Shown: positions 46,672-48,975 of the stretch, piece after piece | Position numbering within the stretch: the first letter of the stretch is position 1 | Layout of the letters: the number at the start of each line of letters is the position of its first letter | Assembly (NCBI GenBank): GCA_964016885.1 | Contig: OZ024741.1 | Coordinates: 189,906,001-189,970,000, forward strand | Source of the DNA: Eledone cirrhosa | Lineage: Eukaryota | Direction: 5' to 3' | Length of the DNA: 64,000 nucleotides | Program-made: the position numbers and the translations under genes | The notes under the pieces: model-generated | The model's input: only the letters and a program-made list of their open reading frames with translations | The model's database searches: none | Told to the model about the DNA's origin: nothing

Positions 46672-47117
46672 AATGTGCCAGTCTAGTATTGGGGTTGATT
46701 CTTTCTCTTTCTCTGAATGAAATTGGCTGTATTCTGCCAGAAAGGATGGACTCCATCAGGTATAAAATACCCAAGACTACAGTGTTGTGATAGCACCCCT
46801 AAAACTCAAGAGTTTGCCTTTACCTTACTTAGATATAAATGTTGTACCTTAAATATACACTCTAAAGTTGAGATAATGTTACTAGTTTTGTTTAGAAATA
46901 AAGTTAAAAATGTACATCCACATATGTATACTGAAATACTAGTATGCATATGAATACACACACGTGTACATATGTAGATGTACCGAGTTTTTCACTGGAC
47001 ACTTTACTGTGAGTGTCCAGCTATTCTGTATGTAAACACACAGACAAACCGGTTTTTAGAGTCATACTGGTTTTCGAGGAAACACCTTTCCTCTATTCTC
47101 CAGAAAGCCAGACAAGG

Positions 47118-47162
47118 AATATTGGACTAGTTTCGATGTTGTTACATCTCATCAGCAATATT
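47118..47162 (-). ncRNA. Type I hammerhead ribozyme (copy 1)
   Basis: Minus strand reads aatattg-CTGATGA-GATGT(aaca)ACATC-GAAA-CTAG-TC-caatatt. Confidence 0.9.
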
Positions 47163-47583
47163 TACCTATCTTCCGGCCTTTCTAGAGAATCGTAAAAGCA
47201 CATATCGTTATATGCTTTTTCTATGAAAATTAGTAGTGGGCAGACCAATTTGCATAGAGCGTGAGTACGTACCGGTTCAGCGGAGACGATAAAAACAGAT
47301 AACGAAACGAAATTAAATTTCGTTTCGTTTGTAACTCACTTTTGTATGACTGACGCTTAAACAATTAAGTTAAAAATGTACATCCACATATGTATACTGA
47401 AATACTAGTATGCATATGAATACACACACGTGTACATATGTAGATGTACCGAGTTTTTCACTGGACACTTTACTGTGAGTGTCCAGCTATTCTGTATGTA
47501 AACACACAGACAAACCGGTTTTTAGAGTCATACTGGTTTTCGAGGAAACACCTTTCCTCTATTCTCCAGAAAGCCAGACAAGG

Positions 47584-47628
47584 AATATTGGACTAGTTTC
47601 GATGTTGTTACATCTCATCAGCAATATT
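47584..47628 (-). ncRNA. Type I hammerhead ribozyme (copy 2)
   Basis: Identical to copy 1, 466 bp downstream. Confidence 0.9.
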
Positions 47629-48096
47629 TACCTATCTTCCGGCCTTTCTAGAGAATCGTAAAAGCACATATCGTTATATGCTTTTTCTATGAAAATTAGT
47701 AGTGGGCAGACCAATTTGCATAGAACGTGAGTACGTACCGGTTCAGCGGAGACGATAAAAACAGATAACGAAACGAAATTAAATTTCGTTTCGTTTGTAA
47801 CTCACTTTTGTATGACTGACGCTTAAACAATTAAGTTAAAAATGTGCATACTAGTATTTCAGTATACATATGTGGATGTACATTTTTAACTTAATTGTTT
47901 AAGCGTCAGTCATACAAAAGTGAGTTACAAACGAAACGAAATTTAATTTCGTTTCGTTATCTGTTTTTATCGTCTCCGCTGAACCGGTACGTACTCACGC
48001 TCTATGCAAATTGGTCTGCCCACTACTAATTTTCATAGAAAAAGCATATAACGATATGTGCTTTTACGATTCTCTAGAAAGGCCGGAAGATAGGTA

Positions 48097-48141
48097 AATA
48101 TTGCTGATGAGATGTAACAACATCGAAACTAGTCCAATATT
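48097..48141 (+). ncRNA. Type I hammerhead ribozyme (copy 3); predicted cleavage after GUC at 48134
   Basis: Stem I aatattg/caatatt, core CTGATGA (48104-48110), stem II GATGT/ACATC, GAAA (48125-48128), palindromic stem III ACTAGT. Confidence 0.9.
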
Positions 48142-48975
48142 CCTTGTCTGGCTTTCTGGAGAATAGAGGAAAGGTGTTTCCTCGAAAACCAGTATGACTC
48201 TAAAAACCGGTTTGTCTGTGTGTTTACATACAGAATAGCTGGACACTCACAGTAAAGTGTCCAGTGAAAAACTCGGTACATCTACATATGTACACGTGTG
48301 TGTATTCATATGCATACTAGTATTTCAGTATACATATGTGGATGTACATTTTTAACTTAATTGTTTAAGCGTCAGTCATACAAAAGTGAGTTACAAACGA
48401 AACGAAATTTAATTTCGTTTCGTTATCTGTTTTTAGAAATAAAATTTTCCGTTTAAATTCAGCTAATGTACATATCCAAAAATAAGACCCCTAATAACAA
48501 TTTGAGATCAGATTGAAGTGTAATTTAAATATGAATATAGATGTAAATATGGCAACTATACACTCTAAAAATAAGGTTAACCTTTCATTACCACACTGCC
48601 TATGTGTTACCATTATTTTGAAAATAACCAAAAACTTAAAGGAAATTATGGCCGTTATTATAGTTGACATTATTATTACTTTTATAATAAAGTTATTTAA
48701 TAAAATAACTAAGGTTTTGTCAGTAAACTGATATTTAGAGCATTACTTAAAACATTCTAAAATAAAATTATGGTGGAAGGTTTTAATATAAGAGTAACCA
48801 TTTACAAATTAGCAATTTTATATCCTAAATAAGGGGCAGTTTTAGGAAATTTGGTATGAAATAGGTTAATAGTATGTTATTATAAAATAAAATTCCTAAC
48901 TTAAATTCATCTAATGTACACATCCAGGAATGAGCAATAGCTAATGCTTACAAATCAAACTAATCAAAATGTAGT

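What the first reader, a model, noticed from the sequence alone, without database searches (positions are those of the whole stretch)
46901..48435. Candidate active retrozyme: 466-nt non-coding unit with an intact hammerhead ribozyme, in tandem
Seen: an exact 466-bp period and near-identical copies (I found only one difference, GAGCGT vs GAACGT). Each unit has one complete type I hammerhead (CUGAUGA / GAAA / GUC, 7-bp proximal stem I, 5-bp stem II). Stem III is the palindrome ACUAGU, too short to fold alone. Established: minimal type I hammerheads with palindromic stem III occur in Penelope-like elements and animal non-LTR retrozymes and work as dimers; tandem transcripts self-process to monomers that circularise. 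Inference: a minus-strand transcript across copies 2 and 1 would release a 466-nt monomer or circular RNA. This may be an undescribed, recently mobile cephalopod retrozyme family.
Basis: partly seen in the sequence, partly recalled or inferred. Interest (0 to 1): 0.92.

Follow-up and report, generated by a model that had tools for sequence, protein, structure and literature searches.

The report
Hammerhead retrozyme bearing Penelope insertion scars
This is one young copy of an abundant protein-free 466-base repeat that carries a predicted self-cutting hammerhead RNA, and its insertions across the genome end at two fixed points in a back-to-back pattern, which suggests it is likely copied from an RNA circle by the enzyme of a Penelope-like jumping gene: a new example of a known class, with unusually clear mechanistic footprints.

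Summary
Window 46897-48435 is one insertion: 2.04 units of a 466-nt repeat on the minus strand joined 5'-to-5' to 1.27 units on the plus strand, flanked by a 12-bp target-site duplication. Each unit has a type I hammerhead whose stems covary across related families. The genome holds 1,584 exact copies of this hammerhead and 40,658 matches to a looser pattern (control 23). The unit has no ORF, so it is a non-LTR retrozyme, a known class.

New here is the insertion grammar. Arms end at two fixed sites about 72-74 nt apart. In 45 of 45 two-armed insertions with both ends at these sites, one arm uses each site. Of these, 41 lie in (TA)n. Both arms carry the same rare variants, 80 of 90 arms run through cleavage sites, and in 11 of 45 neither arm can be a fold-back copy of the other. 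This is the Penelope tail-plus-inversion signature, and it fits double target-primed reverse transcription on one RNA species, likely a circle.

Not shown: expression, cleavage, circles, the helper element, and the host clade.

The parts
46891..46902 (+). Left copy of the 12-bp target-site duplication; its 3' end matches the unit at start site 1 in 5 of 6 bases
46897..47849 (-). Left arm, 953 nt = 2.04 tandem units; RNA-sense 3' end at unit position about 228 (site 1), 5' end at unit position 208
47125..47590 (-). One complete 466-nt monomer from cleavage site to cleavage site; predicted excised or circular RNA; 36.9% GC, folding z -9.5
47102..47173 (-). Type I hammerhead 1 (predicted cut 3' of C at 47125)
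47568..47639 (-). Type I hammerhead 2 (predicted cut 3' of C at 47591)
47842..47849 (.). Inversion junction, 8-nt overlap between the two arms
47842..48435 (+). Right arm, 594 nt = 1.27 units; 5' end at unit position 174, 3' end at unit position 301 (site 2)
48004..48011 (+). ATGCAAAT octamer, kept in most aligned units of families A and B; possible promoter element (inference)
48086..48157 (+). Type I hammerhead 3; core CUGAUGA/GAAA, palindromic stem III ACUAGU 48128-48133, C17 at 48134
48276..48347 (+). Long predicted hairpin just upstream of start site 1 (site 1 at about 48362-48364 in this copy)
48396..48424 (+). 13-bp hairpin just upstream of start site 2, followed by a U-rich, mostly unpaired stretch
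48432..48443 (+). Right copy of the 12-bp target-site duplication; first 4 bases shared with the unit at site 2

Best explanation
The stretch is one recent insertion of a non-coding, hammerhead-bearing 466-nt repeat family (a non-LTR retrozyme) that is likely copied into new sites in trans by a Penelope-like reverse transcriptase/GIY-YIG endonuclease, likely using a circular RNA monomer as template. Proposed steps: (1) a tandem locus is transcribed (inferred); (2) paired hammerheads, joined through the palindromic stem III, cut out 466-nt monomers that are ligated to circles (inferred from the class; structure and covariation shown); (3) the helper protein makes staggered nicks in (TA)n or other AT-rich DNA (target preference and TSD shown; enzyme inferred); (4) the two 3' ends prime at two fixed U-rich sites about 72-74 nt apart, one end at each site (shown as end positions; priming inferred); (5) both cDNAs run round the template for 0.1 to 31 units (lengths shown; rolling circle inferred); (6) the two cDNA ends are joined with little or no homology, giving the head-to-head array (junctions shown; repair route inferred).
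For: Family: 197 matches among 40 of 704 candidates scored, mostly 99-100% identical, on many contigs; 1,584 exact hammerhead 37-mers; 1,842 exact site-2/(TA)n junctions and 621 site-1/(TA)n matches, some counted twice, controls 0. No ATG ORF over 50 aa in the tandem stretch. Catalogue of 71 clusters from 68 stretches: 52 are two-armed and all 52 divergent; 45 have both ends at the fixed sites and all 45 have one of each (p 6e-14 against 50:50); all 19 single-armed clusters also end at one of the two sites. 41 of 45 have (TA)n on both sides; 80 of 90 arms extend past a cleavage site. Rare variants fixed in one arm occur in the other in 70 of 72 tallies (17 of 19 insertions fully; 30 tallies come from one insertion). 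Three insertions of 5.9-7.9 units have no internal difference. In 11 of 45, including this window, neither arm fits inside the other, so fold-back copying cannot make them. Hammerhead: 10 of 16 pairs show two-sided changes over 12 sequences of three families, 0 of 500 shuffles reach this and slid controls give at most 3; the 310-nt family keeps a palindrome, ACGCGT. Penelope-like RT+GIY-YIG ORFs are in the genome; one family is 97.9-98.7% identical among 6 copies, and it and other elements also have two 3' ends into (TA)n, 40-68 nt apart. PMC11167929 (parts 1-2 of 4 read) shows a PLE protein nicking and extending both strands and starting at two internal RNA sites.
Against: No RNA-level evidence was obtained for expression, cleavage or circles. 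No helper was identified: a profile of the units found no pLTR homology in 30 GIY-YIG loci beyond retrozyme copies, TA-rich noise and one weak hammerhead-region hit (E 0.002). Whole-arm distance picks the own partner arm as nearest or tied in only 21 of 43 (median 0.54% within, 1.28% between). Some long arms show variants repeating every 4-6 units (L049+50, L047), which fits a multimeric template or later unequal exchange. 34 of 45 insertions are compatible with fold-back on length alone. For the anole PLE, hammerhead cleavage was not needed in vitro and unprocessed RNA was the main template. Only 1 of 9 Xenopus retrozyme dimers cleaved in vitro. Stem III palindromy is broken in a few units (L038). 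Loci were picked from top hits and opposite-strand pairs, so 52 of 71 is not a genome-wide rate.
Confidence: 0.62

Rival explanations
1. Same retrozyme and same Penelope-type double priming, but the template is an uncleaved linear multimer transcribed from a homogeneous source array; the hammerhead acts elsewhere in the cycle or is slow.
For: Unprocessed RNA was the main substrate of the anole PLE in vitro. Periodic variants in some long arms. Site-2 arms end just 3' of site 1 in 10 of 45 (p 0.011, one of six tests), as expected if one cDNA runs into the other primer. One arm begins exactly at the cleavage site (L137).
Against: Arms of up to 31 units (14 kb) with variants fixed in every unit. 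193 of 221 within-insertion variants are private to one insertion and strand-symmetric, as for later DNA mutation. The hammerhead is kept by covariation. Related animal retrozymes accumulate mainly as circles (PMC7229834, sections 13 and 17 and passages read).
Confidence: 0.24
2. The unit is the terminal repeat (pLTR) of an autonomous Penelope-like element not yet found, and the arrays are its truncated products.
For: The ends, tail, inversions and target are those of PLEs (PMC8557442 passages). One array (L130) is fused without (TA)n to the 3' end of a Hydra-type PLE ORF in the same orientation. A 2026 preprint finds 24 of 57 Xenopus retrozyme families similar to known TEs, nearly all PLE termini.
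Against: 5' ends spread over the whole unit; no upstream sequence is shared among 19 single-armed clusters. None of 24 other copies of that Hydra-type 3' end continues into the unit; 22 continue into their own terminal sequence H. The L130 Hydra part is at least 2-4% from its nearest fetched relatives while the array is 99.8% like other units, so it is probably an older neighbour. Families A and B align around the whole circle. The search was not exhaustive.
Confidence: 0.07
3. The inverted arm is made by self-priming or fold-back, and the fixed ends come from endonuclease resolution, as earlier proposed for PLEs.
For: Proposed in PMC3846280 (self-priming on an antisense template; passages) and PMC8557442 (tail from EN resolution). 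The unit is rich in hairpins on both strands. 34 of 45 are length-compatible.
Against: In 11 of 45 neither arm fits within the other. Site-1 arm longer in 23, site-2 arm longer in 22. In this window both ends share bases with the 12-bp TSD, as primers would. An antisense-template version is not excluded by the length test.
Confidence: 0.05
4. A satellite or MITE-like repeat spread at the DNA level, with the hammerhead as a passenger.
For: Long tandem arrays exist; inverted arms look superficially like terminal inverted repeats.
Against: The two ends are different fixed positions, 5' ends are random, polarity follows the hammerhead strand in 52 of 52, and the ribozyme covaries.
Confidence: 0.02

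Closest known systems
Animal non-LTR retrozymes (Acropora 220-245 nt, Mytilus 350-390 nt, axolotl/newt; PMC7229834; preprint 10.64898/2026.07.22.740005)
   Same: Short non-coding tandem unit, one canonical type I hammerhead per unit, GC under 50%, strong self-pairing, TSD over 4 bp, thousands of copies, co-occurrence with PLEs.
   Different: 466 nt is at the long end. RNA circles are shown there, not here. Two fixed 3' ends, one-of-each inverted arms and (TA)n targeting were not described for retrozymes in the parts of these papers that I read; supplements were not seen.
EN+ Penelope-like elements (Neptune, Hydra, Poseidon; PMC8557442, PMC3846280, PMC11167929)
   Same: Partial tandems, inverted 5'-truncated copy, optional tail at one end, (TA)n or AT-rich targets, 8-12 bp TSD, hammerhead in the repeat, two RT start sites.
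   Different: No ORF. The tail is 72-74 nt against the 30-40 nt quoted. Arrays reach 31 units. No sequence similarity to a pLTR was found.
Non-autonomous Chlamys PLEs such as MRC1 (PMC8557442 passage)
   Same: Non-autonomous, multicopy head-to-tail insertions made by PLE machinery.
   Different: Those resemble their autonomous partner at the 3' end and that group lacks canonical hammerheads; this unit has one and no partner similarity was found.
L1 twin priming (mechanism recalled; PMC2837659 seen as search listing only)
   Same: Inverted 5' arm, both target ends prime, short homology at the junction, TSD.
   Different: L1 starts at the poly(A) end and at a variable internal site; here both starts are fixed internal sites and both arms can be multi-unit.
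Plant LTR retrozymes
   Same: Non-coding, hammerhead-processed, moved in trans.
   Different: Type III hammerheads in LTRs and 4-bp TSD; not so here.

Membership tests
non-LTR retrozyme | Type I hammerhead in each tandem unit | tested here: met
   (Rfam score 38.9, below gathering 52, but core complete and stems covary)
non-LTR retrozyme | Short tandem unit (150-450 bp in PMC7229834; 51-972 bp in the preprint), dimers to multimers | tested here: met
   466 nt, up to 31 units per arm
non-LTR retrozyme | GC below 50% and highly self-paired RNA | tested here: met
   36.9% GC; z -9.46, 0 of 100 shuffles
non-LTR retrozyme | No protein coding, no LTR | tested here: met
   longest ATG ORF 50 aa; no LTR-type structure in 71 clusters; PBS/PPT not searched separately
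non-LTR retrozyme | TSD longer than 4 bp when present | tested here: met
   12 bp here, 12 bp at L029, 13 bp at L018; unreadable in (TA)n
non-LTR retrozyme | Expressed as linear and circular monomer RNA | not testable with these tools
   needs RNA data or northern blot
non-LTR retrozyme | Self-cleavage in vitro | not testable with these tools
   bench assay
autonomous Penelope-like element | RT plus GIY-YIG ORF within the element | tested here: not met
   not a genome-wide search
autonomous Penelope-like element | Two alternative 3' ends (tail) | tested here: met
autonomous Penelope-like element | Inverted 5'-truncated copy, head to head | tested here: met
   52 of 52 two-armed clusters divergent
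autonomous Penelope-like element | (TA)n or AT-rich target | tested here: met
   41 of 45
PLE pLTR derivative | Sequence similarity to the pLTR of an ORF-bearing PLE | tested here: inconclusive
   none in 30 GIY-YIG loci or 24 Hydra-type 3' ends; thousands of PLE candidates not examined; Repbase and Dfam not available
plant LTR retrozyme | Type III hammerhead in LTRs, 4-bp TSD | tested here: not met

The most novel reading that the evidence does not exclude
A Penelope RT/endonuclease dimer primes both nicked strands of (TA)n on one ribozyme-made RNA circle, always one at each of two fixed sites, and both polymerases roll round it. This would explain the Penelope tail and head-to-head inversion in one step and would tie animal retrozyme circles to Penelope enzymes by mechanism rather than by co-occurrence. 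The wider set of such repeats (over 40,000 hammerhead motifs) would be a large RNA-circle parasite family of this genome.
Probability: 0.45. Interest if true: 0.78.

Novelty: new member of a known kind. Interest (0 to 1): 0.56.

Why it matters
Two questions are stated as open in the papers read: what moves animal retrozymes (PMC7229834 discussion; 2026 preprint), and how Penelope elements form their tandem/inverted, tailed insertions (PMC8557442). This family is short, young and ORF-free, with at least 1,842 readable ends, so it gives an unusually clean record. The one-arm-per-site rule, the template variants shared by both arms and the exclusion of simple fold-back in a quarter of cases support double priming. 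They name the RNA positions to test in the published in vitro PLE system. The element itself belongs to a known class.

Tried and rejected
No RNA holder listed among 6 public runs; this says nothing about expression. Contigs of four runs of unknown kind were laid. In two other organisms the unit closes on itself as one contig (495 and 496 nt, 8 and 13 other letters), but tandem DNA gives the same picture, so this is not evidence of an RNA circle. One contig of run X1 starts at 48432, the first base of the TSD, with 212 unlaid letters before it. That fits an empty allele, but the letters were not shown and X1 may be the source sample. No paralogous empty site was found among 40 of 132 candidates scored. 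The 735-aa frame between two partial units at L031 looks like a LINE-type RT (my reading, not scanned), not a helper. The L130 fusion to a Hydra-type ORF was followed up and judged an older neighbour or a single chimera. Family F could not be tied to one ORF. No A-to-G excess, so no editing signature (A>G 18, T>C 25). Arm 5' ends do not pile at the cleavage site: 1 of 11 nearby ends falls exactly on it. Lower variation in the catalytic core (0.25% vs 1.09%) is discounted because many loci were chosen by an exact hammerhead match. Rfam miRNA matches at the inversion are hairpin artefacts below threshold. No match in the phage collection. No earlier scan findings. Literature searches for this family: 'octopus'+'hammerhead ribozyme', 'cephalopod'/'Penelope'/'retrozyme'. 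None listed a cephalopod retrozyme. Subscription papers, Repbase, Dfam and the supplements of the papers read were not seen and may hold it.

Full report
Observation. The stretch is one insertion. A 953-nt arm on the minus strand (46897-47849) and a 594-nt arm on the plus strand (47842-48435) meet 5'-to-5' with an 8-nt overlap, and a 12-bp duplication lies at 46891-46902 and 48432-48443. I number the unit from the base after the predicted cut (u1 = 48135 on +). The left arm then ends at u228 and the right arm at u301. The unit is 36.9% GC, has no ATG frame over 50 aa and folds far better than shuffles (z -9.5; the opposite strand -7.7). The hammerhead stems I and II stay formed in the predicted circle.

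Ribozyme. Twelve natural hammerheads from three related repeat families keep the core and the loop bases; 10 of 16 pairs change on both sides, against at most 3 in slid controls (the rows are related, so this is support, not a probability). Stem III is a 6-nt palindrome, ACUAGU in families A and B and ACGCGU in the 310-nt family. That is the arrangement described as needing a dimer in PMC4209133 (part 1 of 4 read). Activity is inferred, not shown; in a 2026 preprint only 1 of 9 such dimers cleaved (parts 1-3 of 5 read).

Family. The 3.0-Gb genome holds 1,584 exact copies of the 37-nt hammerhead and 40,658 matches to a looser pattern against 23 for the control. The best-scoring copies are 99-100% identical and lie on many contigs (40 of 704 candidates scored). 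Subfamilies have 463-470-nt units, a family B of 422-538 nt aligns round the whole unit, and there is a 310-nt family.

Insertion grammar. I mapped 71 clusters in 68 stretches. They were chosen, often for showing opposite-strand hits but blind to end position. Left out were repeat views of the same locus, L031 (composite), L038 (array running off both ends) and L020-L026. All 52 two-armed clusters point outward. In 45 both ends lie at one of two sites (u224-235, u297-304), and all 45 have one of each; of the other 7, two are cut by the stretch edge and five have an off-site end. All 19 single-armed clusters end at one of the two sites. 41 of 45 sit in (TA)n; this window is one of 4 that do not, which is why its TSD is readable. 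Genome-wide there are 1,842 exact site-2/(TA)n junctions and 621 site-1 matches. By my reading of the first 100 rows of each list, no outward-facing site-1 pair lies within 15 kb. One site-2 pair does, and its right end belongs to an insertion whose left end is site 1 (L048). Each site follows a predicted hairpin and a U-rich stretch. Family B shows the same two ends about 61-67 nt apart, and other (TA)n elements of this genome show two ends 40-68 nt apart.

Template. 80 of 90 arms extend past a cleavage site and 65 of 90 exceed one unit; the longest has 31 units. Rare variants fixed in one arm recur in the other in 70 of 72 tallies (17 of 19 insertions fully). Three insertions of 6-8 units have no internal difference, and internal variants elsewhere are strand-symmetric and mostly private (193 of 221). 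Against a simple picture: the partner arm is nearest or tied in only 21 of 43, and some arrays show periodic variants. In 11 of 45 insertions, this one included, neither arm can be a copy of the other; arm lengths are balanced 23 to 22. Junction overlaps are 0-3 nt in 23 of 45, longer in 13, with 1-14 extra bases in 9.

Mechanism. These features are the tail, inversion and (TA)n signature of EN+ Penelope-like elements (PMC8557442 passages; PMC3846280 passages). The anole PLE protein nicks and extends both strands, starts at two internal RNA sites that match the genomic tail, and is predicted to be a dimer (PMC11167929, parts 1-2 of 4). The most economical reading is double target-primed reverse transcription on one RNA species, one primer per site, followed by end joining. 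A circle explains multi-unit arms from a self-cutting RNA, and related animal retrozymes are mainly circular in vivo (PMC7229834, passages and sections 13 and 17). An uncleaved multimer is the main rival.

Helper. GIY-YIG candidates are abundant (150 of 10,597 scored). Several families carry RT and GIY-YIG in one frame; the clade labels Neptune-like and Hydra-like are my reading of motifs, not a tree. One Neptune-like family is about 98% identical among 6 copies and has ends 65 nt apart in (TA)n. No pLTR similarity to the unit was found. One fusion to a Hydra-type ORF is unique among 25 copies examined and looks older than the array. The helper is unidentified.

Host. Not determined. Named relatives of one PLE protein are from bivalves at 46-48% identity.

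Verdict. Real, recent, and a new member of a known class. Five literature searches listed no report of this family, but repeat databases and supplements were not seen. The value lies in the clean end statistics, which bear on how retrozymes and Penelope elements integrate. Interest 0.56.

Noticed in passing
L044:143-1287, L076:8079-10000, L145, L146, L147: Related retrozyme family B (422-538 nt, GUA triplet, U-U at the base of stem II, expanding internal TA tract) with the same two end sites; it makes up most of the first 100 listed matches outside one long family A array.
   Followed up: partly
L050:1675-4800: 310-nt tandem/inverted hammerhead family with palindrome ACGCGT, inserted in (TA)n next to a family A array.
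   Followed up: partly
L130:614-4313 (G000:C1:404.30 Mb): Family A array fused at u38, without TA, to the 3' end of a Hydra-type PLE ORF whose own terminus forms the inverted left arm; either an insertion with deletion into an older copy or a template-switch chimera.
   Followed up: yes
L071:720-1330, L031:7090-7570: Family F: abundant hammerhead-bearing element (2,826 candidates) with a long upstream microsatellite and two ends 68 nt apart; its ORF is not assigned.
   Followed up: partly
L066:3809-6622, L068:2275-5562: Long Penelope-like open frames (938 and 1,096 aa); the L066 family has only a degenerate hammerhead-like motif in its terminal repeat.
   Followed up: partly
window:48004-48011: Octamer ATGCAAAT kept in most units of families A and B; newt satellite 2 is recalled to use an snRNA-type promoter with an octamer (not confirmed).
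   Followed up: no
window:48112, 48123, 48134: An older subfamily has a compensatory stem II swap and GUU in place of GUC; the T at 48134 is the majority in run X1.
   Followed up: partly
window:43455-46672: Degenerate LTR retrotransposon: 490-bp direct repeats 96% alike, RT/RNase H fragment on the minus strand.
   Followed up: no
window:48977-54999 and 51142-53156: Second broken LTR retrotransposon (integrase fragment at 53828-54115) with a 2-kb element nested in it that has about 400-bp direct repeats.
   Followed up: no
window:8024-9255, 28467-29197, 22082-23205, 57425-59759: 48-nt and 60-nt minisatellites, and a broken LINE-type RT region; SINE-like repeats recur at 25851-27214 and 56702-57020.
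   Followed up: no
L031:1551-7887: A composite of a family F end plus a partial family A unit is present twice, inverted, around a LINE-like ORF, with a 226-nt LINE-like segment repeated at the left edge; a complex rearrangement.
   Followed up: no
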